Shown here in pieces: positions 1 to 64,000 of a DNA stretch of 64,000 nucleotides; the first letter of the stretch is position 1, and each line of letters starts with the position of its first letter. Below the pieces are notes generated by a model. It worked only from the letters and a program-made list of their open reading frames with translations. It did not search any database and was not told the origin of the DNA. The stretch covers positions 1-64,000 of the forward strand of contig JASVEC010000028.1 in NCBI GenBank assembly GCA_030770535.1. Reading direction: 5' to 3'. The stretch comes from Batkoa obscura. Taxonomy: Eukaryota. A program made the position numbers and the translations under genes.

Positions 1-1001
1 CCTAACCCTAACCCTAACCCTAACCCTAACCCTAACCCTAACCCTAACCCTAACCCTAACCCTAACCCTAACCCTAACCCTAACCCTAACCCTAACCCTA
101 ACCCTAACCCTAACCCTAACCCTAACCCTAACCCTAACCCTAACCCTAACCCTAACCCTAACCCTAACCCTAACCCTAACCCTAACCCTAACCCTAACCC
201 TAACCCTAACCCTAACCCTAACCCTAACCCTAACCCTAACCCTAACCCTAACCCTAACCCTAACCCTAACCCTAACCCTAACCCTAACCCTAACCCTAAC
301 CCTAACCCTAACCCTAACCCTAACCCTAACCCTAACCCTAACCCTAACCCTAACCCTAACCCTAACCCTAACCCTAACCCTAACCCTAACCCTAACCCTA
401 ACCCTAACCCTAACCCTAACCCTAACCCTAACCCTAACCCTAACCCTAACCCTAACCCTAACCCTAACCCTAACCCTAACCCTAACCCTAACCCTAACCC
501 TAACCCTAACCCTAACCCTAACCCTAACCCTAACCCTAACCCTAACCCTAACCCTAACCCTAACCCTAACCCTAACCCTAACCCTAACCCTAACCCTAAC
601 CCTAACCCTAACCCTAACCCTAACCCTAACCCTAACCCTAACCCTAACCCTAACCCTAACCCTAACCCTAACCCTAACCCTAACCCTAACCCTAACCCTA
701 ACCCTAACCCTAACCCTAACCCTAACCCTAACCCTAACCCTAACCCTAACCCTAACCCTAACCCTAACCCTAACCCTAACCCTAACCCTAACCCTAACCC
801 TAACCCTAACCCTAACCCTAACCCTAACCCTAACCCTAACCCTAACCCTAACCCTAACCCTAACCCTAACCCTAACCCTAACCCTAACCCTAACCCTAAC
901 CCTAACCCTAACCCTAACCCTAACCCTAACCCTAACCCTAACCCTAACCCTAACCCTAACCCTAACCCTAACCCTAACCCTAACCCTAACCCTAACCCTA
1001 A
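1..1001. repeat. Telomere, (CCCTAA)n / (TTAGGG)n, about 167 perfect units
   Basis: Uninterrupted CCCTAA hexamers from position 1. Confidence 0.99.
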
Positions 1002-1180
1002 AAATAACCCTAACCCTAAAAATAACCCTAACCCTAACCCTAAAAATAACCCTAACCCTAAAAATAACCCTAACCCTAAAAATAACCCTAACCCTAAAAA
1101 TAACCCTAACCCTAAAAATAACCCTAACCCTAAAAATAACCCTAAAAATAACCCTAACCCTAAAAATAACCCTAAAAATA
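1002..1180. repeat. Proximal variant telomeric repeats: CCCTAA interspersed with AAATAA
   Basis: About 11 AAATAA units, mostly as CCCTAA-CCCTAA-AAATAA; ends at ...cctaaaaata|tctcttg. Confidence 0.95.
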
Positions 1181-29082: not shown

Positions 29083-29607
29083 TTAAACGAGGAATAATGA
29101 TGCTGCTGCAATTGCAACTAAAGGAGAATTAGATGAGAAAAATGCAGAGGAGGTTTGTGAAGTTGACTTAGCAGCGTTGCTATTGATACTGGTACTGATA
29201 GATTTCAAAACATCTTGATAGCATTTGAGACTACAAGAGATATCGTCTTTACAATCTTTGGTGCATTTTACAGTTTTATCAAGATCCTCCTTTGAAACTT
29301 TTCCATCAGTGCATTTGGATAAGCAAGCAGTATCATCTTTACAATTGGAAACGCATTTAATATTTTCTTGAGTTTGTTCGGAAGTAAGATCTGATGGTAA
29401 GGCATCAGTTATACATTTTGTTTTACAGTTGTCATCGCTACACTTTGATTGACAAGTGCTTATTTTGTTTTCGATTTCAATGCCTGCTTCGAATACTTTT
29501 TTACAAAGATCTTTAGTGGAAGGGTCTAGTGAATCACATTGATTTTTTGATACAGCTGCTGAAGCGATAGATACAATTAAAAAGGCTACAATTGATTGAT
29601 ATTTCAT
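29083..29607 (-). CDS. Cys-rich secreted, probably GPI-anchored surface protein (paralog A)
   Basis: Signal peptide, three Cx3C-x4-6-Cx3C units, Ser/Thr stalk, hydrophobic C-terminus. Confidence 0.85.
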   Translation of the reverse strand: MKYQSIVAFLIVSIASAAVSKNQCDSLDPSTKDLCKKVFEAGIEIENKISTCQSKCSDDNCKTKCITDALPSDLTSEQTQENIKCVSNCKDDTACLSKCTDGKVSKEDLDKTVKCTKDCKDDISCSLKCYQDVLKSISTSINSNAAKSTSQTSSAFFSSNSPLVAIAAASLFLV

Positions 29608-30540
29608 TTCTCTGATATAAATTTAAGTTGAATGATAAATTTCAGTCTGCTATATATACTTTTACATCAGAATATTATTATGCTTAGTATGCTATGACTT
29701 AACTCGATTTAATCTATTTATAATTTAAATTTTATAAATATATTTTGATAGGTTATGAGGAGGAATTGGCTTTTGTGTAAATCTTGGCAGAAATCATCAA
29801 GAATTTTTTTGATTCGTATTAGTTAAAGCCAAAACCTATTATAATATTCAAGGCGTACCACAAAGCTATTAATAAGCGTAACCATTGCATATTAAGATAT
29901 GGAAATCAATGTAGTGAATGTATGTTGTCATGCCTTGTTTTAACAGAATAGCAATACCCAAATCTTATCACTTATTAATATTCTAAAAGAAATTAGTGCA
30001 TAACTAATCATAGTTCATTTAACTCGGATAGTAACATAAAATTCTTGACTTATGAAATACCAAATAAATTACTGGTTGAATAGCCATTGTTAATTTTGCC
30101 AGTAAGTAAGATAAAAATAGAATTAATTTTGGGCATATATTTTTGTAAAAAATCCACTAAATTAAAATAATGATTAAATACTTGATCATTTCAAAAAAAT
30201 TATTTATAGATCTGGGTCTAATAATAAATATTTTAGCCGCACTTGTATGAAAGTTAAAGTGGTTTGGTTAATTTCTCCTAAACTTATAGTAACATTTGAC
30301 GTATGTTAGATAACTCATAGCAAATATCAATACCCTTCTATCATATATATAGCATAAAGTTTTAATGTTGTATAATAACCAAAAAAGATTATTATAAAAA
30401 AATAATAATTAAACCTTTATAAAATCCAGCTACCAGGTAGGTCAAAAAGTGTTAGGCTATTTGATTGAGACCACTATATGAGATTAATATAATGGAATAA
30501 AAATGAAGCCGAGTAGAAGGCTATCCTATACATTACAATT

Positions 30541-32751: not shown

Positions 32752-33321
32752 TCAAAATAATAGAGCTCCAGCAGCTAAAAGAACTAATGGGGAGGCGGTG
32801 TTGATGAACGAATTAGAACCTGCCTTTGGTTTAGGAGGGTCACTTGAAGTAGGTGACTTATTGTTACTTTCCGAACTTCCAGATTTTACAGTAGTATCTT
32901 TGGTTGTTTGCCCTGAAGCTCCCAATGAACACTTAGAAAGGCAACTTATATCGTTATTACAACCTTTAGAACATTCAAGGCTTTTATCAAGATCTTCCTT
33001 TTGGACCATACCACCTGAGCATTTTGAAATACAGGCAGTATCACCTTGCTTACATGAGTTATAACATTTGCTTTGTTCTTGAATATCTGGGGAGTTGATT
33101 AAATCGGAGGCAGCTTCTGTCGAACATTTTACCTTACAGTCCATATCAGAGCATTTAGCTTCACATGCTTTAAGTTTGTTCATATATTCATTTCCAGAAG
33201 CAGCCTGTTTTTCGCAAGTATCTTTAGCACTACCACTAAATGAATCACAAAAGCCTCCACTTGAAACTGCTGCAGAGGTAATGGCTGATATAAAGATAGC
33301 AATAAGTGAGATGTTTTTCAT
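32752..33321 (-). CDS. Cys-rich secreted, probably GPI-anchored surface protein (paralog B)
   Basis: Same architecture as 29083-29607; shares KEDLDK..C.K.C..DISC. Confidence 0.85.
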   Translation of the reverse strand: MKNISLIAIFISAITSAAVSSGGFCDSFSGSAKDTCEKQAASGNEYMNKLKACEAKCSDMDCKVKCSTEAASDLINSPDIQEQSKCYNSCKQGDTACISKCSGGMVQKEDLDKSLECSKGCNNDISCLSKCSLGASGQTTKDTTVKSGSSESNNKSPTSSDPPKPKAGSNSFINTASPLVLLAAGALLF

Positions 33322-34477
33322 TTTTTTGATTTGATTTTTTGATTTTTTGAAAAATTAAAGTATTTATACTTTTTATCAACATGATCCTTATTTTAATTGA
33401 GAAAATAATATTCATAAGACATTTATATGTTAGATGCGGCTTGGATATAATTCATGTACAATTTATTGATATTTGTTGAAGCTTGATTTCATTAACCATT
33501 TTAATAAATGTAACATTTTTTTATTTAAATTAAATATAACTGTTAAAGCTCGTTTGTAAAGTACTTAATTATCTATTTAAAGATAGATTTCTGACACAGT
33601 TTTCGCTAGTGCTTAAATGTTAGGCTCTAAAAAAGTAAGCAAATTAATAATACCCGAACAAATCTTGCTAGAGATTCCATGTTTGAACTTTAACAGATGA
33701 AGAATTCCTGATCAAGCTTTGCATGTTAAATTCTGTTAGAACCCCCAAACGCCCCATCTTTATTTTACCTCAAATTATATAGCTTCTTAATAAACTTTCC
33801 TTTTTTAAATAAATAGAAAACAATAAAGCCGAAATCCTTACTCATACTAAAGCTTAATCCCTTCCGGTTCTAAAAAACATTTGTGATATTGATTAGAGTA
33901 GCACCACTTGTTCATATGTATGATTGGTTTTAATAAAATTCAAAGTTTATATAATGGCATGTATAATGATAATAATAAGTAAACATCGTTTATAATATCA
34001 ATGTTTAATGGTGTCGTTGGGTGTTGCTGATAACAAGTTATAAATATATCACAAATTAATAACTATTTTTAATTAATTTATTGTATAAAACTAAATATCA
34101 AAAAACGCGATAGCTCAAATTATTAGATCTCGCTTTTAACCAAATAAGTAAATAGCTATTAATCTATCAATACCAGTAGTTACCACTATAACTTTGGCAT
34201 AAATATTGTGATCTTAATTTAATTTAACATATCAAAATATCATATAATTTTCAAATTCAAATTAAGTATTTTAATATAGATAAATAAATGTTCTCAAAAA
34301 TTAATTTCTTTAAATATCCATTTCTTTAAAAAATAAACTATAACTCAAATATTATACTATGTTTTAATACATTAAATGCTATTTAACTATTCAATCATTG
34401 TAATAAGCAAACTATCAGTATCTCCAATGCAGTAATTATTTTAAATTTTGGCTTTAATAAAGGGATTTTCACAATAT

Positions 34478-34677
34478 GGGGATGTATTTTATGTTTAAGA
34501 ATTTTACTAACAACCTTTCCGCTCAAATAGCGCTTAAAAAATGGAAAAAATAATAAAGCTAAAAAAAACACCCCCATATGGGGATGTATTTTTGTTTAAG
34601 AATTTTGCTGGCAATTTTTCCACTCAAATAGCACTTAAGAAACAGAAAAAGTGATGAAACCAAAAAAAAACACCCTA
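34478..34677 (+). mobile_element. MITE copies 9 and 10 as a head-to-tail tandem (34478-34575, 34580-34677)
   Basis: ATAT-element-ATAT-element-ATAT. Confidence 0.9.
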
Positions 34678-35387
34678 ATATACTCTCTAAAATACAAAGT
34701 CCCAAAATACATAATGATCCGAAATATATTATTTCAGTAAAAACAATTCATAATTAAGTATCATCTAATTTTTTTATATTACATAAGAATGATACTATTT
34801 TTTATATTATGTCTATATAATATAAGCGTTTTGACTTTATTATAAATAAATATTTACTCATTTTTATTGACTTCATACATTATTAAAATAGCATACTGGA
34901 AAAGCCAATTTGCAACTCAAAAATAGTTCAAATATCTTTAAAGAATTATTAAAAATGTACTTCTATGTCTTAAATTAATTTGTAATATACCAATTGTTTC
35001 TCTAAAGACTATACATTTCTTGTTTAATAATAATATGATTTATTTTTATTTTAAGGCGTTTTTATATATTTAATATATTACAAAACAATGGTATTTTTAA
35101 AAACATTGATATGATATTTAACAAACATATTAAGAGCCAAGGATGATGTCTGAAATATCTTTGAGTATAATATATATTGTTCTAAGATTAAAAACTAATA
35201 TCAGCTTTTTATCATTTTATCGTGATAAAGGTAACAAATAAAAGATAAGAATAATGATTACTTTATTTTTTAATCTGGTGTTTTACTAAATCAACTTAAT
35301 AATGTTGTTATTGACTATAGATAAAAAATTGAAAAAATTGAATTAAAAAATGCTCTTCGATCAAATTTGTAATTTCAATATAGGAAT

Positions 35388-53057: not shown

Positions 53058-54188
53058 ATGCTTCAAGGCCAAAATGATACCAAACCCAATGAAATGGAAA
53101 AATTCAAAGTATTCTTAAAAATGCCAATAACCAAAGATTTTGTAGACATTTTAACATTAAAGACAAAGATTGTATTAGATTCAACTAGTTCAATTAAGCG
53201 ACCAATTACTCCTCCCTTGACACCTTTATGTCCTGGAAATTCACCTTTACCAAAACTTTCTACATTTGTTCGTAACCTCATAATAAGATCAAGAGTTCAA
53301 CCTGCTACATTATTTGGTACCATGGTATACTTGGAAAGGCTAAGAAGCAAATTTCAAAATATTATTGCTAAGCATGAGTGCGCCCCACATCGCATAATGT
53401 TAGCTGCATTAATAGTGGCTGGTAAATTTTTGAATGATTCTTCACCAAAAAATAAACATTGGGCTAATTACTCACAAATTTTCCACATATGTGACATCAA
53501 CCTTATGGAAAAGCAAATGTTAGAGTACCTTCATTTCAATCTTATAGTTACTGAAGAAGAACTTATGAAACAATATAATAGCTTTTCGCACTTACCTCAT
53601 AGTCCAAGGGAATTAGCTATTATTACTTCCATCCCATTCACACCTTCAACACCAAAATCGGGTATATTTCCACCTAGTCATAAAACTCCGTTTTCTATCC
53701 ATTTCCCAGAGATTTTAGATACAAACACAAGAAAGTATCATAAAAAAGAATTATTGACACCAGTCGTATTAAGCAATATTAAGGAAGGATCAATTTTACC
53801 AACACCTGATAGTAAAGGAAATAGAAAATACAATCCTTATCCTAAAGCAATTATTACAAAGTTAAACCATCCATCAAAAGGTTCAACACTCTATCAAAGA
53901 CGTGCATCACGTAAAAAGTTAAGCAATGAGTTCACACAGCAAACTAGTTTTAAAACTAACCCAGAAATTATATTGACAGTTCCAAACACAAATATTAATA
54001 ACCCACCTCTCTCCGCACCTTTATTTAAGCAATTTCCATACCCCACTTATAATTTAAAACAAACTACCCCTAATTATATGGCAACTGGACAAAATTGCCT
54101 TACCTTGCCACCTTTGAGTTCAATTATGGAACAAAGTCTTTCATTAAATTTATCTTACTCTACTAACTTATTTCCTCGCTCTGGATAA
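53058..54188 (+). CDS. Pho85 cyclin (PCL1/2-like), intronless
   Basis: LPKLSTFVRNL, VYLERLR, HRIMLAALIVAGKFLNDSSPKNKHW, INLMEKQML. Confidence 0.9.
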   Translation: MLQGQNDTKPNEMEKFKVFLKMPITKDFVDILTLKTKIVLDSTSSIKRPITPPLTPLCPGNSPLPKLSTFVRNLIIRSRVQPATLFGTMVYLERLRSKFQNIIAKHECAPHRIMLAALIVAGKFLNDSSPKNKHWANYSQIFHICDINLMEKQMLEYLHFNLIVTEEELMKQYNSFSHLPHSPRELAIITSIPFTPSTPKSGIFPPSHKTPFSIHFPEILDTNTRKYHKKELLTPVVLSNIKEGSILPTPDSKGNRKYNPYPKAIITKLNHPSKGSTLYQRRASRKKLSNEFTQQTSFKTNPEIILTVPNTNINNPPLSAPLFKQFPYPTYNLKQTTPNYMATGQNCLTLPPLSSIMEQSLSLNLSYSTNLFPRSG

Positions 54189-54947
54189 AGCAATCAAAAG
54201 TAGCACTTTGAAGCATTTTTGATCAATTTTGTTTGTATAAATTTAAAATATTAACCTCTTTTGTTCCTTTTCTTAAAATAAGCCGGTTTTAAAATAAAAT
54301 AATTCATAGAATTAAAATAAATTTTAAATTAAGTTATATTGCGAATTGTAGTTAAATTTGTAACTGAAATAACCATCTTGTTTTAAACAAATATATTTAA
54401 TAAATACTGTTTTCAGATAAACTGATTAGTTTTGAGCACAAATAACAGTTTAAATTAGAATATCAATAAATTAAAAAATATTGTTATATTGTTGTTAGAT
54501 AATACTAATATGAGAATTTCTCAGTTCAATTTTGTCCATTTATTAGATAGCTTAAAATTTAAGAAATAAGCAAGGGTGGAATGATGATGCTATCAATTTT
54601 CAAAAGCTAATAAGTTAAGGTGAAATAGAGGTAAAGTATAAATAAACTTTTCAATTTTAAAATTAATTTAACCTTAAAATCAAGATATAATAATGTAGTA
54701 AAAATAAAAGATCATAATACTGATTTAAGGTTTAAAAACTATGAATAAATCAATAAAAGTAGTAAAAATGAACTTTTTTTTTATAATTTAATGATTTAAA
54801 TGCGCTATATGCCATATTAAGTTCTATAAATACTACATGCTTTTGATATGGTACTTCATCCCGCTTCCCTGATTAAATATTTCATAATAATTTTTAAAAT
54901 ATACATTTCCTTATACGTTCTATATGCATTAAAGTTAAAAATAAAAT

Positions 54948-55045
54948 GGGGATGTATTTTTTTGTTTAAGAATTTTACTAACAATTTTTCTACTCAAATA
55001 GCGCTTAAAAGATGGAAAAAGTAATGAAACCAAAAAAAACCCCCC
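54948..55045 (+). mobile_element. MITE copy 15
   Basis: TSD AAAT/AAAT. Confidence 0.93.
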
Positions 55046-55289
55046 AAATAATAATTATACACTCTGATGAAGTGTTTTAAAAAATACTTGAAAAGTTATG
55101 AATACGATTAGATAATTCCGATTATCTTTTATAATACTAAAACATTAGCTTAAATTGTATGAGATAAAAAATACAGTTTAATTACAATTAAAAATTTGAT
55201 AAACTATTGGATGTATAATTTTATACAAATTTGTGTTGATATCTAATTATTTTCACAAGAGTATAAATATTTAATATCACTTATGTTAT

Positions 55290-55724
55290 TTAATAACACC
55301 ATAGTGACCAATAATTTAAGTGTAAAAAGGAGCTACTATAGCCACCTTTTCCATAATCACCATCTCTACAAATATAGTTGAAGAAAAACTCAGGGTTCTT
55401 TTCATTGATGCCTTTAGTGGTACTAATTCTAGCTGAAAGAAAATCTTGATCACGTAACCATAATATCTGTTGTAAAAATGTTTTATAAGTATTTTCACTA
55501 TGTATATCTAAAGATGCCCCTTTTCTAGCACATACACAGACATTTACTTGTCTTTTTGCGTATTGTTCAGCACCATCTAAAACAAGTATTGAAAAACAGC
55601 TATTTAAGTCTTCTGGAAAGCTCTCCATATTTTCTGGTAGATCTTCAATAGCATAACTTGAATGGGTATGAATTTCAATAGCATCCACAATTACAAAAAA
55701 TAAAATAAAGCTATAAAAATACAT
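55290..55724 (-). CDS. Small secreted Cys-containing hypothetical protein at the left edge of the viral-like block
   Basis: 144 aa intronless ORF with signal peptide MYFYSFILFFVIVDA. Confidence 0.65.
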   Translation of the reverse strand: MYFYSFILFFVIVDAIEIHTHSSYAIEDLPENMESFPEDLNSCFSILVLDGAEQYAKRQVNVCVCARKGASLDIHSENTYKTFLQQILWLRDQDFLSARISTTKGINEKNPEFFFNYICRDGDYGKGGYSSSFLHLNYWSLWCY

Positions 55725-56236
55725 TATAAAAATATTTTTAATATTAGATAGCTTATATACAATTTGAAGATATTCTATATATTATGTTTGTAACCATTAT
55801 TTCTAGATATACACAACTGTATAATTAATTCTAAACAATATAATATTTAAAAACATTTTAATATGGAATTTGAATATAAGTACGATTCTAGCAATTGTAA
55901 AACTTCCAAAGAGGGTTTTAAATACCAGTATATATTAGAATCTAAAACAAAAGAATACACATACAATAATTTTTTATTGGTTAATGAAAATAGAATAAAG
56001 TAAAACTTTTTGTCTCTGATAAATAATTCTTTACAAAATCTATTACTCTATTTAACAAGCAGTTTAATCAAAACAATTATGTTAACTCGAAATATTATCT
56101 TCCATCTATCAGAGAAGATACTGGAACAGAAGGTAATATAGATTTAGAAGAAGATGATACATCTGATAAAACTTTTATATGTTTGATATTAAACATTATA
56201 AAAAACTTTTCAGCCCTTTGATATACTGATATATAT

Positions 56237-56852
56237 ATGGTTATATTTACATCAAAAGATGCACTATTTTCAAGACAAGAAAAACTGTTAGTAAACTCCA
56301 TGAAAGGACTAGATATATCTGATAAGTATCTATTGGAATATAGTGTTGCAAAGTTACAAGATAAATTTGTAATTGTAAATCTTAAAGATGTTAAACAACT
56401 AAACACTGCTGATATTGTAACACTTTCGGAGATAAAAAAATCTAAAGTATCTTATGTAAAAGATCTTAAAGGGTGCTACTATTATGCATTTGAGTTTAAT
56501 GATTCAAACAATACATTATCTTTATCTCAAAATAATTTACCTGTATCAGGATGTTGGAAGAATCATATCCATACTTGTTCTACTTATGATATTGATTATA
56601 TCAGATCATTATTTAAAAAAGGTGTAAAAATTGTATACATTTATGAACCAATGGGTTATAGATGGATATCAAGTGATAAGAAATATATGGGGGTATTTTT
56701 TTTGGTTTCATTATTTTTTCTACCTTTTAAGCGCTATTTGAGTGAAAAAATTGTTAGTGAAATCCTTAAACACAAAAATACATTCCCATATTGAGTTGCT
56801 AAAGCTTATAAAAGATAAAGATATTGAAAAATTCTTATCTACAGAATTATAA
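56237..56852 (+). pseudogene. Hypothetical viral-like protein (170 aa when restored) interrupted by a MITE
   Basis: Removing 56689-56787 plus one ATAT restores ...SSDKKY-IELLKLIKDKDIEKFLSTEL*. Confidence 0.75.
56689..56787 (-). mobile_element. MITE copy 16
   Basis: Reverse orientation, TSD ATAT/ATAT. Confidence 0.93.
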
Positions 56853-56876
56853 CAGTATAAAAATTTGTTTGTATAT

Positions 56877-56975
56877 GGGGATGTATTTTTGTGTTTAAGG
56901 ATTTCACTAACAATTTTTTCACTCAAATAGCGCTTAAAAGGTAGAAAAAATAATGAAACCAAAAAAAACACCCCC
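56877..56975 (+). mobile_element. MITE copy 17
   Basis: Near-identical inverted partner of copy 16; flanks ATAT/ATAA. Confidence 0.92.
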
Positions 56976-57012
56976 ATAATATAAATACAAACGCCTTAAA
57001 TAAATAGTTCAA

Positions 57013-57255
57013 CTAGTTTATATACACAAACATTATATTGTTTCGAATAAGAATCTCATTTACTGTAAATGTATTACTGGTATTATTATAGTAAAATAAT
57101 GTATCCAAGACACCTTCCATTTTTTGAGTGTACTTAAATATTTCCACTTCTTTTCTAATATTATATTCCTCATCTTTATAAAAAGTATCGCCGTTTATTT
57201 TCCAAGACATTTGTTTTTTATTTTTGTTAAGATGGTAAGATTTTATATATTTCAT
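57013..57255 (-). CDS. Hypothetical viral-like protein (80 aa)
   Basis: Intronless ORF divergent from 57348. Confidence 0.5.
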   Translation of the reverse strand: MKYIKSYHLNKNKKQMSWKINGDTFYKDEEYNIRKEVEIFKYTQKMEGVLDTLFYYNNTSNTFTVNEILIRNNIMFVYIN

Positions 57256-57347
57256 CTATTAAAATAATTACAACTTTTTTCTCAAATCAATTATAATAAA
57301 ATAAATTATTTTTGTTATAAAAGTATTAGAGATGTTTTTTTATAATA

Positions 57348-58543
57348 ATGTCTGATATTAGATTTTCTAAGATTAAATCTGTAGCAAAAAATTATAGACT
57401 CAAGATAAAAAATAATCGTAATATTCATATAGAGTCAGATTATGATTATTGCTATCATGATGCCGAAAAATGGTATTATAAACATAAAAAATATGATTAC
57501 CAATTTATACAACCCAACCCACATTCTTTTATTGATATAGAAAACGGTTACGAATATATAAATTGTGTTGAAAAACTTAGAAAACCTTTTAAAGTGTCTA
57601 CATTAATTTTAGATTTTATCTACTTTAATGGATTTGAATTCGATTATGGTGGAAAGTTTGTCTATACTGATGTAAACATAGAACAATTATTCACAAAAGT
57701 TAATGAAACAATTTTGCTACAGAGAAGTTCTTAAGATTGATATACCCTATGTGGTTAATAGACAAAATATGCTATATTATTCCAATCCATTTGTGTTCGA
57801 TAAGTTTTATTTTAGATATAATCTTGATAATTTTACAGTTTATGAAGATGATTTAAATGAAGATGATTTAAATGAAGATGATTTAAATGAAGATGAAGAT
57901 GAAATGATTGCATTTGGAAACTGTATTTATATAGCTGAACCAGGTTGTTATTTAGCCGTTAGTTTAAATGGTTTTAATAAAAATCATCCTATTATTCCAA
58001 AGGTTTACAGGAAGAAAACACTCGCTAAACAGAAAAGAAAACAACTTTATAATCCTAGAAAGATAAACGAACTGTTAAAACCCTCTACAATTATAAAGAA
58101 ATGGAAATATATACCATATTTTAAGTTTACAAAACTTTATATAGATATTAGATGCATCACAGTGTTAAAAAATATTTTTAATATAAATATTAGTGTTGCC
58201 CAACCAACATTTTATAATATAGATAATGTTAAAGAAAGACATAATATTATTACATGTATCGATTCAAACAATATAAATATTACAAGAATTACAGATAAAC
58301 CTCTTTGGATTATATACTATAAACAATTTGATCACGTAAATATCATTACAGATATTGATCAAGCTAATGAAAATGATATATTTACCGATGAATCTCATAC
58401 AACTATTTTTATAGATTCTAAAGAAAGACCTAGTGTTTAATATAGCTGGCAAAACATATATTCTAATAAACTCTATGACTATTCATGAGATTAAATACGA
58501 AATAGCAAATATTATTGAAGGATATGCATTAATGAAATTATAA
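57348..58543 (+). pseudogene. Hypothetical viral-like protein, probably one gene broken by two frameshifts
   Basis: Overlapping ORFs 57348-57734 and 57703-58440, plus a shifted tail (...LVFNIAGKTYIL...YALMKL* ending 58543); contains (EDDLN)x3 at ~57844-57888. Confidence 0.55.
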
Positions 58544-58622
58544 AAAAAAATTTGTAAAAAAAAATTTTTTTTAACTGAATATTATTTATTTATACCAAAT
58601 TTTAAATATAATCAACTTACGT

Positions 58623-60446
58623 ATGTTATTATATCATCAAGAGTTTGCAAACAATTTTATCAGTCCAGATAACAATAACAGATCAGTATTACTTTTGTTT
58701 AGTACTAGAGCTGGTAAAAGTTTTACTACCATAAGTATATGTGATTCATTTCTAAACAGTAACTTATATGGTTATTATGAATATCCGATTATTATAGGTA
58801 AAAGTGATATAACAAATCTTAACTTTAAAAAACAAGTAGAGTTATATAACAAAAAATATAGCAGAAAAATGAAAATGAAGTATAAAATTATATTTAAAAC
58901 CGATAATTTAAAACTAAACAATGAATATAGATATATTCTTATATATGATGAAGTACATCATGTTAGAAAGATAAATAAGCTATATAGTAAAATTAAGATA
59001 CCTAAGGGTGTTATATTATTTTTAACGGCTACAGAATATATAGATAAAGTAGAAGGATTTTATGACATTATGGATTTATTACCTCAGAAAATATTCTTAA
59101 ATATACCAATAATGAATGTAATGTAAGGGTTACATATAAAGGGCAAAATGTTGGATATAAATATCCAGTTGTGTCTCTAGAAATGAGTAAAACACAAAAA
59201 CAAGATTATGACAGAATACCCAATACCAGTATAAGATGTGAAAAAGTTTACGAAACAATAATGTCAAACAGTTTGAGGACAAAAATAAAAAATAAAATTT
59301 CCAACATAACTATCGAAGATCTACAAATACATCAAATAGAACTATATACAATGATTAAAAATCCAAAAAATCTAGCATATATTTATTGTGAATATATTCA
59401 AGAAAATGGTATACAGTCTATTGTGAAGGTATTAAAGATTATTATACCAGATATCAAAATAGCCATATATACTAGAGAAACACCTCATTGTGAATCAATA
59501 GTTGAAAATTTTAATGATCCTTCAAACATAGATGGAGATATATATAATATAATTATAGGTAGTAAAATTATCAGTGAATCAATATCTTTGAAGAATGTTA
59601 AACAAGTACATATACTTACTCTACACTGGAATTATAGCTTGATAGATCAAGTTATTGGAAGAGCTATACGCATCAACTCATATGTCCCTGGATCTACTAT
59701 TGAAATATTTATATGGTAAAAAATAGTATAGACAAAATAAAGTTGAATATCTCAAGAAGTAAACATAAACAAGAAATGTAGATAGTTACAATTTTATAGA
59801 TATCAACAAACAGATAAAAGATTATAATATACATAAGAAGCTTGGTAGTATAGAATGTAATCTTAATAGTATATCTATAAGTTCATCTCAAAAATTTATA
59901 GAGGATAATATTTCAATAGATAAATCAAAACTTATAGAGATGAATCTCAGAGATAAAATATCATACATAGAACAGATTGAAGATCCAAGTGTTTATGAAT
60001 CTATAGTTTTTAAAGACGATGAGAAATTTGTACATATTTTATATTATTCTACATAACTTAATAATAATCATCATATATCTTCTAGTAATTATAAATGTAT
60101 TGGTAAAACAAGATATAGATATATCAATGAACAACCCTGGTACTGGTATCAAGGTGATGAACAACTGGTAAAAGAACATTTTGAATCTAGACTTAGAAAT
60201 CTAAAATCTGATCATTATGTTTTAATAAGTCATACAGATAGGAAAAAAGGGTATGTCTATATTAAAGACGATGGAAAAGATCTAAGAAAACGTAGCAGAG
60301 GTAAAGATATAAATACGATGTTATGGAAAGAAATAATACCTTTGGCAACTTTTTTAGATATTAAAATAGACAACAAAAGGATAGTTATAATAGAAAGACG
60401 TGTACATATATTGATAAATCAAGGAAAGCTTGTATATCATCACTAA
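58623..60446 (+). pseudogene. SF2 helicase/ATPase of the poxvirus D6/D11 (VETF small subunit / NPH-I) family, frameshifted
   Basis: HQEFANNFISP, LLLFSTRAGKS (degenerate Walker A), YDEVHH, LTAT, ISESISLKNVKQVHILTLHWNYSLIDQVIGRAIR. The frame continues through shifts near 59100, 59715 and 59770 and a TAA at ~60054 to ...LVYHH* at 60446. Confidence 0.85.
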
Positions 60447-61408
60447 TATAATCCAAATATAATACGAGATGTATTACTTTTACAATCATCTACAGAGTTA
60501 TTTATGGCAGCTTGTTTAAGTGTATTATATGAATTTTCAAAAGCCATATCTGCTATAAAACCTTTATTTAGTTTCTTATGACCACTAAAAGTTATTGGTA
60601 TAAGTTCATAACAATTCGATATAGGATTTAAGAAACACATTTTATCTACAATATATGTAATTTCTTGCAGATAGTTTTCACCAACTATATCTAACAATCC
60701 TTCTGTAATTGCTTTTTTTGCTCTTTTAATAACATATACATCATATACTTGTCTTATACAAGATGTTCTAACATTAAAGAAATATTGTGATAATTCTTCA
60801 AGATTACTTCCCAATGTTACATATTTTGTCTTAGATATTTCAGTGACTGCTCTAATACCTTTAATACCAATACAAGTCTCGTTAAGAATCTCATATATTT
60901 TTCTCGGATAACATTCCACAACAATAGCACAATCAAATTCGTGAGATAATGCAACTAATAAATCTCCAAAATAGTTTCCGAATTCCCAGAGAGATAATCT
61001 GTGTTCGTATAGTTTTTTTAACTTTATAGTATAAACCTCACTGTATCTATCCATCATAAACAAATCTAAACCTGGATATTTATCCGTTACAGATTCTACA
61101 TGAAAAAACAGATTACGATATACTATTTGTAATGGACGTATCTTATATTCTTTCAGATCTTTTTCATGATTAAATCCATATTTATCTTTTATAATACAAT
61201 TACCATCACTAGATAGTTCTATTATATCAAGACATCTTTGGAAACCATTTGTAAGATTACCTGTATTACGAAATGCATTAAGTGTGTTTTGTACTAATGG
61301 TCTCATAATTGTCTGAGCCATATCTATACCGTCATCCATTTTAATAACATTTATCTTTTCATCATCAGATAAATAATGTTCGCTATTGTAAGATTCAGAA
61401 TTAGACAT
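60443..61408 (-). CDS. DNA-directed RNA polymerase largest-subunit C-terminal part (RPB1 domain 5 / archaeal A''-like), stand-alone
   Basis: AQTIMRPLVQNTLNAFRNTG (cf. AQSIGEPxTQMTLNTFHxAG), GFQRCLDII, IKGIRAV, TLGSNL, MAFENSYNTLKQAA...DDCKSNTSRIIFG. Confidence 0.85.
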   Translation of the reverse strand: MSNSESYNSEHYLSDDEKINVIKMDDGIDMAQTIMRPLVQNTLNAFRNTGNLTNGFQRCLDIIELSSDGNCIIKDKYGFNHEKDLKEYKIRPLQIVYRNLFFHVESVTDKYPGLDLFMMDRYSEVYTIKLKKLYEHRLSLWEFGNYFGDLLVALSHEFDCAIVVECYPRKIYEILNETCIGIKGIRAVTEISKTKYVTLGSNLEELSQYFFNVRTSCIRQVYDVYVIKRAKKAITEGLLDIVGENYLQEITYIVDKMCFLNPISNCYELIPITFSGHKKLNKGFIADMAFENSYNTLKQAAINNSVDDCKSNTSRIIFGLY

Positions 61409-61443
61409 TTTTATAAAGGTATAGTTTTAATTATTTTATTGAA

Positions 61444-63327
61444 ATGAACTTACGTTTTCAAAGAATGTCTTATAAATGAAAATTTTATAATAATTATGCT
61501 ACTAATGCAGCTAATGAAGAAATAACATTTGATGGTTATAAATTTATACAAGATTTGAATGGAACTTATAACTCTATATCTGGTAATAAATATCCTAAGC
61601 AGTATATAAATTATGCATCTATTTATAACAAATTAGAAATATACAACCAATATGAGTTACAAAAATATGTAAAGATATTTTCGTTTGATATTATTTTTAT
61701 GACATGTATTATAGTTCAAGAGAATAATACCACTAGACGATATACACTTAAACAAAATTTTTCAGAATTTTTTATTATTTTAGAAGATGAGAAACCTAAT
61801 GTTATTACTGGATATAATATTTGTGGTTATGATTTTCCAAAAATAATAGAACAGATTGGTACAAACAGTTATAATGCTATAAATTTAGGATGGGAGTCAT
61901 CAGCTTTTGGAAAGAATAGGATCAAATACATAGATTTACCATTTGCCGTTGTGATAGATTTATATCTCATTATAAAACGTGATTATATTTTAGAATCTTA
62001 TTCTCTGAATGAAGTTTCAAAACATTTTCTTAAGGAGACTAAGTATGATTTGTCTTATAAACAGATGTTTAAACTATATGAACGGAATAGTTTTGATGAA
62101 ATAGAAAAATGTTGTTTACAAGATACACAATTAGTCATAAATCTTTTTAATAAGATGAATATTTGGATTGGTCTTTGTGAACTTTCTGAGTTAACATATA
62201 CACCTATTAAGGAATTATATACAAGAGATCAGACATATAGGTTAAAAAATATGTACTATTATGAGTTTATAAAAAGAAATTATGCGTTTGACTATAATGG
62301 TTCTAAAATAAATTATGATAAAAGACAATGGGCATATAAAATTTTAATAAACTCTATATACGGTGCTTTTGGAGCTAGGGGAGTTTTATATAAACTAGAT
62401 ATTGCACAACTAATTATAAGGGTTGGTAGAGAGAATCTTATAATTTCAAAACAAGTTATAGAATCATATGATGGTTTCTTAGTGTTCTATGGAGATACAG
62501 ATCCTTGTATGGTAAAATATGAATTTAGTATATATATAGTTCCTAAGATAATAGAAGATGTTTGTTCCAAAACAGAGATATTCTTGGAAATGGAAAACGA
62601 GTTCAAAACTTTTCTACTGGTATCTAAGAAAAAATATATTGCTAAAAAAGACGACAATACCATTTATAACAGAGGATTGAGTGTTCAAAGATTATTTTGT
62701 AAATTTATTAAAGAATTACTAAAACAAGTTTACATAATGATTTTAGACAATAAAGGTCCCAGAAAGTATATAAAAGAACAGATCAAACAATTATTAGCTG
62801 GAAATATTGACAACGATAGATTGATAATGAAAACAAATCTTAAAGAAGAATATAATAATGTTTGTGCTAATAGTATATTTCGAAATAATATAAAGTCTGA
62901 ATTCAATGAATCATTTGGAGCAGTTGAATATTATTACAGTTATCCTAGAGTAGAAGATTTTATCAAAGATCATAATTGTAAAGATAAAATGGGGTATTGT
63001 TATTCTTTGGAACCAGATAACATAGGCTGCATACTATACCTTAGACAGTTGAAACAGATAGATACAGTACTAAATATAATATATAAAGAAATTATAATAT
63101 AAAAATATACGAAAGCCAAAAAGAATTTGAGAGAAATAAATGTAAAAACATATATGAATGGTGAAGGATATATATTTTTAGAAACTCCAGAATATGTTAC
63201 AGATGGAATAGGTCTTATTAATGGATATATGAAAATAGATCATAAAAATATATTAATAAGAGAATGGATAAAGAATAAATATAATAAGAGTAATCCACTT
63301 CACAAATCTATGATAAAATACATTTGA
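61444..63327 (+). pseudogene. Family B DNA polymerase (RNA-primed delta/NCLDV type), internally deleted
   Basis: SFDI (ExoI, altered), ITGYNICGYDF (ExoII), SYSLNEVS, CLQDT (ExoIII), QWAYKILINSIYG, YGDTDP, KKKY. Motif A (DxxSLYPS) is absent. ATG 61444, ORF 61555-63102 and ORF 63127-63327 share one frame, with stops at 61477 and 63100. Confidence 0.88.
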
Positions 63328-63502
63328 ATACATTAAATCTAATAACAATAACTATATACTCTTTATATATATATATTATTAACAAAAAGCTATTATATAT
63401 ATAAAAATATTATGATAGTTCTTTAAAAAAAATATTTTTCTTTTTAGAATATTATAACAATACAAAAATTTTAATATTTATTGAGTTGATTATATTAGAA
63501 CT

Positions 63503-64000
63503 ATAAAAATATTATTATTGTTTGCTTTATCACCTCTAGTTAGTTGTGAAGATATTATCCTCCAACCTTCTGCTATTTCATATATTACTCCTCAGGTAAA
63601 TTCTAGATCGGCTGTTGATACAATGGATTGGTTTTATGACAAACATGCCTTTGAAACTGTTAGTAAAGCAGATCCAAAATTACCGGAAAGAAATTTATCC
63701 CGTAGATTTGATATCTATGACTTTGAAAAAGAAATTACTGATATAGAAAACAGTATTAAAAGTGCTTTCTATCCATCGATTCTAACCGATGGAATAACAT
63801 TATTAACTACTAAAACAGATAATGCTAATGACAGTGCTAATTTCGGAGCATTAGTTGGAACAATGGATTATTAGAAAGCACAAAAAGCAACGGTTTATTC
63901 TAAAGTAGATAATATTTATGAGAACACCAGAGCAATGTTTGATAAAGAATCTAATGGTAACGCAAAGTTTCAAAGAGATATTGGAAAAGGTCCTAAGTTG
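63503..64000 (+). pseudogene. Decayed secreted protein gene, running off the window
   Basis: ATA-KILLLFALSPLVSC reads as a signal peptide with a lost ATG; in-frame TAG at 63872; the frame stays open to 64000. Confidence 0.6.

What the first reader, a model, noticed from the sequence alone, without database searches (positions are those of the whole stretch)
55863..64000. Endogenous large DNA virus-like element integrated ~56 kb from a fungal telomere
Seen: an abrupt switch from intron-rich host genes to tightly packed intronless ORFs. The helicase and RNAP stop codons overlap at 60443-60446, and only 35 bp separate the divergent RNAP and PolB starts. Established: a D6/D11-family helicase, a multisubunit RNAP and a PolB together are hallmarks of cytoplasmically replicating DNA elements (Nucleocytoviricota; yeast pGKL2-type virus-like elements). 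Inference: this is a relic of a large DNA virus of an early-diverging fungus, possibly an undescribed lineage, given how divergent the proteins are and that several ORFs were unrecognisable to me. Host MITEs with TSDs inside it argue against contamination. It probably extends past the window.
Basis: partly seen in the sequence, partly recalled or inferred. Interest (0 to 1): 0.9.

Follow-up and report, generated by a model that had tools for sequence, protein, structure and literature searches.

The report
Decayed fundsalphavirus relic near fungal telomere
A 7.5-kb block near a chromosome end holds broken genes for a DNA polymerase and a helicase plus half an RNA polymerase subunit, and is likely the dead, inherited remnant of a giant-virus relative of a kind already reported from early-diverging fungi and moss.

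Summary
The block is real. Positions 55,863-63,327 are ORF-dense and intronless and carry a D6/D11-type helicase, a stand-alone C-terminal half of RNA polymerase Rpb1 (RP1c) and an RNA-primed PolB. The lineage is not undescribed. The PolB falls in one clade (SH-aLRT 99) with the Bifiguratus 'fundsalphavirus' PolB of Gong et al. 2020, next to a Cedratvirus-sized record. Grouping with Pol delta is rejected (AU p=0.0004). The split Rpb1 and the order PolB-RP1c-helicase match published fundsalphavirus maps, and Conidiobolus coronatus is a published host. This copy is dead: PolB lacks motif A and has two stops; the helicase has three frameshifts and a stop. A second genome (run X1, 3-4.5% different) carries the same block, so it is likely inherited. 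Two host MITEs sit inside it. Unbroken relatives (60-78% identical) exist on 5-48 kb public contigs, one in C. coronatus. No capsid gene was seen here or in 24.9 kb of an intact clade member, which carries lysozyme cargo. Whether these elements are viruses or capsid-less cytoplasmic plasmids stays open. Verdict: new member of a known kind.

The parts
1..1001 (+). Telomeric (CCCTAA)n array, followed by variant repeats; anchors the block on a chromosome end
55290..55724 (-). 144-aa orphan ORF with a hydrophobic N-terminus; evolves neutrally against X1; possible decayed cargo at the left edge, or a host pseudogene
   Evidence: no Pfam, PHROGs, NCBIfam or meaningful PDB hit; 4 synonymous, 19 non-synonymous and 1 stop-making difference against 81 and 351 sites
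55863..56221 (+). Two short orphan frames (46 and 64 aa), likely pieces of decayed element genes
   Evidence: no family hit above noise
56237..56852 (+). Orphan ORF of about 170 aa, interrupted near its 3' end by a MITE; the frame resumes in the 81-nt spacer (end read by eye, approximate)
56686..56791 (-). Host ~106-nt MITE copy A, 2-bp TA/AT target duplication
   Evidence: X1 contig 4 ends 35 nt inside it
56873..56978 (+). Host ~106-nt MITE copy B, 98% like copy A (likely a recent local hop)
57013..57255 (-). 80-aa orphan ORF
   Evidence: only weak hits (phrog_29132 E 0.004)
57348..57734 (+). 128-aa orphan ORF, overlapping the next ORF by 32 nt
   Evidence: no family hit
57703..58440 (+). 245-aa orphan ORF with a 15-nt acidic tandem repeat
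   Evidence: no family hit; single-sequence model uninformative (pLDDT 30)
58623..60446 (+). D6/D11-like SF2 helicase pseudogene: frame changes near 59,090, 59,710 and 59,775, stop at 60,054, 13-codon deletion near 60,030, altered Walker A motif
   Evidence: 58-78% identical in four pieces to the intact 621-aa P0285; P0285 best matches vaccinia NPH-I and VETFS
60443..61408 (-). RP1c: stand-alone C-terminal half of a split Rpb1 (321 aa, frame still open, 19-codon deletion near 61,042)
   Evidence: PDB Rpo1C E 7e-4; 60% identical to Conidiobolus coronatus KXN65837.1 = P0122, 332 aa; P0122 matches the RpoA'' model TIGR02389 over residues 14-330, E 6e-8
61465..63327 (+). Compact RNA-primed family B DNA polymerase pseudogene: stops at 61,477 and 63,100, deletions in ExoI and of about 76 codons including motif A near 62,320, altered motif C
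   Evidence: 65-68% identical to the intact 729-aa P0001 and P0121; trees
63503..64000 (+). Decayed orphan frame with a hydrophobic N-terminus, no ATG at its start and an internal stop; runs off the window; possible right-edge cargo or host pseudogene
   Evidence: no hits; X1 contig 7 continues about 2.8 kb beyond the window

Best explanation
The block is a broken PolB-RP1c-helicase gene cluster with orphan ORFs, lying among host genes 56 kb from a telomere, and is likely a dead, vertically inherited fragment of a 'fundsalphavirus', a pithovirus-related DNA element of early-diverging fungi. Shown: the three core genes, their lesions, the host MITEs inside the block, the same block in a second genome, and unbroken relatives in public data. 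Inferred mechanism: the parent element replicated in the cytoplasm with its own RNA-primed PolB and transcribed its genes with its own split-Rpb1 polymerase and D6/D11 helicase. A piece was captured into the subtelomere, probably by double-strand-break repair, since no integrase or terminal repeat is seen. It then decayed by point mutation towards A+T, small deletions and MITE insertion. It now most likely does nothing. The host is inferred to be Conidiobolus-like.
For: Tree: window PolB plus P0001 (100) lie in a 99-supported clade with P0132 (Bifiguratus OZJ01442.1, on a 3,791-bp contig, the size Gong et al. give for their fundsalphavirus contig MVBO01000368.1) and P0127 (Linderina). That clade is sister (98) to a clade holding L001, whose record length of 589,068 bp equals Cedratvirus A11; the 185-row FastTree shows the same 39-row clade (0.994) but supports the sister link only at 0.646. 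Pol delta grouping is rejected, p-AU 0.00044. The split Rpb1 is the published signature of the lineage (PMC4083422). The order POL-RP1c-HELICc-DEXDc is drawn for several Neocallimastigomycota elements, and POL-RP1c for C. coronatus KQ964610.1. The only RP1c hit among 624 candidates is from C. coronatus. Among the ORFs of 294 viral loci, the best match of both the PolB and the intact helicase relative is L081, an intact clade member with a stand-alone RP1c. X1 contigs span 55,010-56,721, 56,976-57,902, 59,346-61,691 and 61,686-63,999 at 3.0-4.5% difference and break at the same MITEs. Decay: GARP residues lost 81, gained 39; FYMINK gained 190, lost 95 against the intact relatives (sums).
Against: The Conidiobolus-type PolB sits on a long branch (1.16), its place inside the clade is unresolved, and the mixture-model tree did not finish. 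The groups were drawn, and the Pol delta rows were picked by C-terminal cysteine clusters, not by name. Only one published fundsalphavirus sequence (P0132) was in the tree. P0122 against L081 RP1c is only 23% identical (E 8e-5), and a profile of the three close RP1c sequences found no hit in the loci. No single X1 contig joins the cyclin gene to the block; two contigs end in the same MITE from both sides. No empty site was seen. The orphan ORFs have no homologue, so their viral origin rests on packing and position. The host name is inferred from a viral gene's relative, not from host genes.
Confidence: 0.88

Rival explanations
1. Same relic, but the parent was not a particle-forming virus: fundsalphaviruses would be capsid-less cytoplasmic DNA plasmids reduced from a pithovirus-like ancestor, working like yeast pGKL elements but with RNA-primed replication, and often carrying secreted antagonism genes. 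This is compatible with the best explanation and concerns what the parent was.
For: No capsid or packaging ATPase in the moss regions (PMC4083422; PMC5294986 table lists only two markers for P. patens). None among the 18 main ORFs scanned in 24.9 kb of L081/L295, which hold RPB5, helicase, capping methyltransferase, PolB, D5, RP1c, TFIIS, UDG, flap nuclease, ligase and a lysozyme with a peptidoglycan-binding domain. In Gong's MCP and A32 trees no 'Fungi_' label exists for six fundsalphavirus host genera, and Conidiobolus and Bifiguratus are written out once each, in Table S1. Published maps show zymocin-alpha-like LysM-ChtBD1-GH18 next to POL in Zancudomyces and ChtBD1 in anaerobic fungi. The PolB is very compact (729 aa).
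Against: Only 24,895 of 51,666 bases of the L081 record were held, and the record begins inside an ORF, so the element is larger than 51 kb or joined to other DNA. Pithoviruses have a divergent capsid protein and no detectable A32 (PMC5127014), so missing hits are weak evidence. No termini, no extrachromosomal DNA and no copy number were seen here. Maumus et al. argued against a mitochondrial-plasmid origin.
Confidence: 0.3
2. A member of a separate, unnamed Conidiobolus-specific lineage of Nucleocytoviricota that only resembles fundsalphaviruses through long-branch attraction.
For: After P0001 itself (1,654 bits) the next representative scores 242 bits at 36% identity among 1.84 billion proteins; long branch; weak RP1c similarity to L081.
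Against: Split Rpb1 and the same gene order as published fundsalphavirus elements; C. coronatus is already a listed host with two loci; PolB and helicase both point to L081.
Confidence: 0.08
3. Processed or duplicated host pseudogenes of Pol delta, RPB1 and a SNF2 helicase, or a contaminant joined by misassembly.
For: The best solved-structure match of the PolB is yeast Pol delta; base composition equals the host's.
Against: AU test rejects Pol delta; helicase relative matches poxvirus D11/D6; intact intronless relatives exist; host MITEs lie inside; a second genome has the block with the same MITE breakpoints.
Confidence: 0.02

Closest known systems
Fundsalphaviruses, endogenous NCLDV-like elements of early-diverging fungi (Gong, Zhang and Han 2020, PMC7017919)
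   Same: PolB in one clade with the Bifiguratus member; split Rpb1; D6/D11 helicase; order POL-RP1c-HELICc-DEXDc; stops and frameshifts; C. coronatus is a listed host.
   Different: The host neighbours listed for the two C. coronatus loci differ from those I identified here (cyclin, HDAC, UGT, PITH, OGG1, ATG9), so this looks like another insertion. It is anchored to a telomere, seen in two genomes, and has four to six orphan ORFs where the anaerobic-fungus maps have RP1n. D5, RPB2, RPB5, SAM and RP1n are not in the window.
Physcomitrella patens NCLDV-like regions (Maumus et al. 2014, PMC4083422)
   Same: Dense intronless core genes, RP1n/RP1c split, no capsid or packaging ATPase seen, inactive copies invaded by host transposons.
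   Different: Moss has 61 near-identical loci; here one decayed locus in a fungus-type genome, with a different gene order. Methylation and silencing were not measured here.
Pithoviridae / Cedratvirus (Pimascovirales)
   Same: Sister clade in the 37-row PolB tree (98); no detectable A32.
   Different: Giant genomes of about 600 kb with particles in amoebae; the relatives here have a 729-aa PolB and sit on contigs of 5-52 kb.
Yeast and Zoopagomycota virus-like elements (pGKL1/2 type; PMC13348850)
   Same: Own RNA polymerase, helicase and capping enzyme for cytoplasmic transcription; relatives carry chitin-binding or chitinase cargo.
   Different: VLEs use a protein-primed PolB with terminal protein; this PolB hits only PF00136 and PF03104 and not PF03175, and clade members have a D5 primase.
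Mycodnaviridae (PMC13533422)
   Same: Large DNA viruses and endogenous copies in early-diverging fungi.
   Different: Defined by a capsid gene, allied to Algavirales/Imitervirales, in zoosporic fungi; the paper never names Conidiobolus and calls earlier fungal EVE clades distant.

Membership tests
Fundsalphavirus (Gong 2020) | PolB groups with fundsalphavirus PolBs, next to pitho-like viruses | tested here: met
   99-supported clade with P0132; sister to the L001 clade at 98, 0.646 in FastTree; one published member only; long branch
Fundsalphavirus (Gong 2020) | Rpb1 split into RP1n and stand-alone RP1c | tested here: met
   321-aa RP1c with own start and stop; intact relatives are 332 aa. RP1n itself is not in the window
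Fundsalphavirus (Gong 2020) | D6/D11-like helicase near PolB; order POL-RP1c-HELICc-DEXDc | tested here: met
   against the maps (order read from PDF text, strands not visible)
Fundsalphavirus (Gong 2020) | D5, RPB2, RPB5, capping methyltransferase in the element | tested here: inconclusive
   Not found in the window (L081 ORFs as queries hit only PolB and helicase); published copies are often partial; next window not available
Fundsalphavirus (Gong 2020) | Endogenous in an early-diverging fungus, with disabling mutations | tested here: met
   lesions, MITEs, second genome; host taxon inferred
Nucleocytoviricota (virus sensu stricto) | Major capsid protein, A32 ATPase, VLTF3 | tested here: inconclusive
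   None in the window or in the held part of L081; whole-record searches were not possible
pGKL-type virus-like element | Protein-primed PolB (PF03175) with terminal protein | tested here: not met
pGKL-type virus-like element | Linear extrachromosomal DNA with terminal inverted repeats | not testable with these tools
   No termini in the window; no whole relative could be fetched
Host Pol delta pseudogene | Nests with Pol delta | tested here: not met
   p-AU 0.00044
Mycodnaviridae | Capsid gene and affinity to Algavirales/Imitervirales | tested here: inconclusive
   No named Mycodnaviridae row in my trees; PolB lies away from the named phycodnavirus row P0068; no capsid gene in the window

The most novel reading that the evidence does not exclude
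The block is the chromosomal fossil of a still-living, capsid-less cytoplasmic DNA element of Conidiobolus fungi: a second, independent reduction of a giant-virus lineage into a killer-plasmid-like replicon, RNA-primed instead of protein-primed. Its intact form would be the 25-48 kb contigs that encode P0001, P0122 and P0123, and the decayed secreted-type ORFs at both edges would be its antagonism cargo.
Probability: 0.25. Interest if true: 0.8.

Novelty: new member of a known kind. Interest (0 to 1): 0.42.

Why it matters
As a fossil it adds one telomere-anchored, two-genome locus to a little-studied group (the word 'fundsalphavirus' occurs in 1 paper of the library). Its use is as a pointer: unbroken relatives 60-78% identical exist in public data, one in a culture-collection strain of C. 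coronatus. That makes an open question from 2014 and 2020 testable: are these elements true viruses of terrestrial fungi, or capsid-less cytoplasmic plasmids? The second answer would show that giant-virus lineages became plasmids twice.

Tried and rejected
No whole genome is held for the window, so the right-hand continuation and other copies could not be read. DNA around the close relatives was not found: P0001 in viral and metagenome contigs, P0285 in both, the RP1c alignment in prokaryote genomes. Whole-record capsid searches on L081 were not possible. Structure models of the 245-aa orphan and of RP1c were unusable (pLDDT 30 and 32), so no fold search was run. The ESM Atlas gave no answer. 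Orphan ORFs: nothing beyond noise in Pfam, PHROGs, NCBIfam, PDB or 17,424 locus ORFs. The mixture-model tree did not finish. No RNA holder was listed, so expression is untested. X1 shows no long listed piece at 57,903-59,345, which proves nothing. Rejected: iridovirus-type origin of the split Rpb1 (recalled for an insect iridovirus; the PolB does not group with the L067/L080 rows, whose iridovirus label is recalled). Rejected: reading 56,686-56,978 as one 293-nt MITE; each 106-nt arm has its own ends and target duplication. The HDAC exon search did not name the host. Searches for a capsid-less reading of this group in print listed none, judged from titles and abstract openings; Maumus et al. 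discuss plasmid and transposon alternatives.
Full report
Setting. The window starts with 1,001 bases of perfect CCCTAA repeat and is about 25% G+C throughout. Up to 54.2 kb it carries eukaryotic housekeeping genes, many in exon-sized pieces: ATG9, a WD40 protein, PTR2, OGG1, PITH, a UDP-glycosyltransferase, a histone deacetylase and a cyclin. No whole genome is held. The host is inferred to be a Conidiobolus-like fungus from the relative named below, not from host genes.

The block. From 55,863 to 63,327, long stop-free frames cover 79% of the bases, against 36% in the host part and at most 9% in 200 shuffles. Three genes are recognisable: an SF2 helicase (58,623-60,446), a fragment of RNA polymerase Rpb1 on the minus strand (60,443-61,408) and a family B DNA polymerase (61,465-63,327). 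The ORFs to the left are orphans in every library that answered.

Intact relatives. Each core gene has one close cluster and then a steep drop. PolB: P0001, 729 aa, 806 bits against 138 for the next of 383 hits; longest contig 47,852 bp. RNAP piece: 1 hit among 624 candidates, KXN65837.1 of Conidiobolus coronatus NRRL 28638, 332 aa, 60% identical, on a 25,963-bp contig; a second member lies on a 25,119-bp contig. Helicase: P0285, 621 aa, one of 2 hits among 633 candidates. The RNAP relative is itself only 332 aa and matches the archaeal RpoA'' model along its length, so the short gene is a true split subunit (RP1c), not a truncation. P0285 best matches vaccinia NPH-I and VETFS, which confirms the D6/D11 label.

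This copy is dead. Against these relatives PolB has stops at 61,477 and 63,100, has lost part of ExoI and about 76 codons that include polymerase motif A, and has an altered motif C. The helicase has three frame changes, a stop, a deletion and an altered Walker A motif. RP1c is still open but lacks 19 codons. Replacements run towards A+T-rich codons. Two copies of a host ~106-nt MITE, a family with 17 copies in the window, lie inside with 2-bp target duplications; the first cuts an ORF.

It is likely inherited. Run X1, the only listed holder, has contigs over 55,010-56,721, 56,976-57,902, 59,346-61,691 and 61,686-63,999 that differ from the window by 3.0-4.5%, so it is not the window's own sample. 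Its contigs break at the same MITE positions near 55.0 and 56.7 kb, and their word depth (23-26) is like that of host-side contigs (25-41), a weak sign. No single contig joins the cyclin gene to the block, and no empty site was seen. 301 of 363 differences are transitions. The 144-aa ORF at 55,290-55,724 evolves neutrally, so the left border may lie about 0.6 kb further left than stated.

Lineage. The nearest named PolBs come from Linderina pennispora and Bifiguratus adelaidae. Gong, Zhang and Han 2020 (PMC7017919; I read parts 1-2 of 3 of the text and parts 1, 2, 3 and 7 of 7 of the supplement as extracted text) named this group fundsalphaviruses, listed the 3,791-bp Bifiguratus contig and two C. 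coronatus loci, and noted shared RP1n, RP1c, helicase, D5, RPB2, RPB5 and SAM genes. Their maps show POL-RP1c-HELICc-DEXDc in anaerobic fungi, the order seen here. Maumus et al. 2014 (PMC4083422; passages) called the RP1 split a signature of the related moss elements and found no capsid or packaging ATPase. In my 37-row tree (LG+G4, SH-aLRT) the window PolB and P0001 sit in a 99-supported clade with the Bifiguratus protein, sister (98) to a clade with a record of Cedratvirus A11's length. A 185-row FastTree gives the same clade at 0.994 but the sister link at only 0.646. Joining Pol delta is rejected at p=0.00044. Limits: long branch, groups drawn after the first tree, 12 of the 197 sequences of the close sets aside not counted, delta rows chosen by cysteine clusters, mixture model unfinished. 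Rows under 500 aa were left out of the large tree, and the small tree is a hand-picked subset.

What the parent looked like. One intact clade member came from IMG/VR (L081/L295, 24,895 of 51,666 bases held). It has ligase, RPB5, helicase, capping methyltransferase, PolB, D5, a stand-alone RP1c, TFIIS, UDG and flap nuclease, plus a lysozyme with a peptidoglycan-binding domain, and no capsid hit. This is a full kit for cytoplasmic replication and transcription (established for poxviruses and pithoviruses; my own knowledge). Published maps add chitin-binding and zymocin-alpha-like genes beside POL. That suggests a killer-plasmid way of life, but the PolB is RNA-primed, unlike pGKL-type elements (PMC13348850; abstract and passages), and pithoviruses hide their capsid gene well (PMC5127014; passages). 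The question cannot be settled from half a record.

Other papers seen as passages only: PMC13533422, PMC5294986, PMC11840718, PMC13524828. Earlier notes of this scan list 23 findings with the word fundsalphavirus in other genomes, none on this genome or sequence.

Verdict. This is a new, decayed, telomere-anchored member, most useful as a pointer to intact Conidiobolus-associated relatives that could show whether the group makes particles at all. Interest 0.42.

Noticed in passing
window 56,976 (run X1, contig 5): X1 has 3,145 nt that are not in the window joined directly before this position: an insertion in X1, or element DNA that the window has lost beside MITE copy B.
   Followed up: no
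window 1,953-56,978: A ~106-nt MITE family with ATGGGG...CCCCAT ends and 2-bp TA/AT target duplications has 17 copies in the window, including a head-to-tail pair at 34,472-34,682.
   Followed up: partly
window 1,002-1,180: The perfect telomere array passes into variant units with an AAAATAA insert before unique DNA begins.
   Followed up: no
L081 3,522-6,464: An intact fundsalphavirus-clade contig carries a phage-type lysozyme with a peptidoglycan-binding domain and a 572-aa tryptophan-rich repeat protein without Pfam or PDB hit: possible antibacterial cargo.
   Followed up: partly
L295 1,394-2,281: An ATP-dependent DNA ligase in this clade member; the moss elements were reported to lack one.
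   Followed up: partly
window 29,083-29,622 and 32,752-33,354: Two paralogous small cysteine-rich proteins with signal-peptide-like starts and hydrophobic ends, likely surface-anchored host proteins.
   Followed up: no
window 54,100-64,000 against X1: 301 of 363 differences are transitions, which would fit methylation-driven decay; not tested against a host control of equal size.
   Followed up: no
window 62,320 and 61,693: Two PolB deletions lie between short repeated dipeptides of the intact relative (YD...YD and DI...DI), which suggests microhomology-mediated loss.
   Followed up: partly
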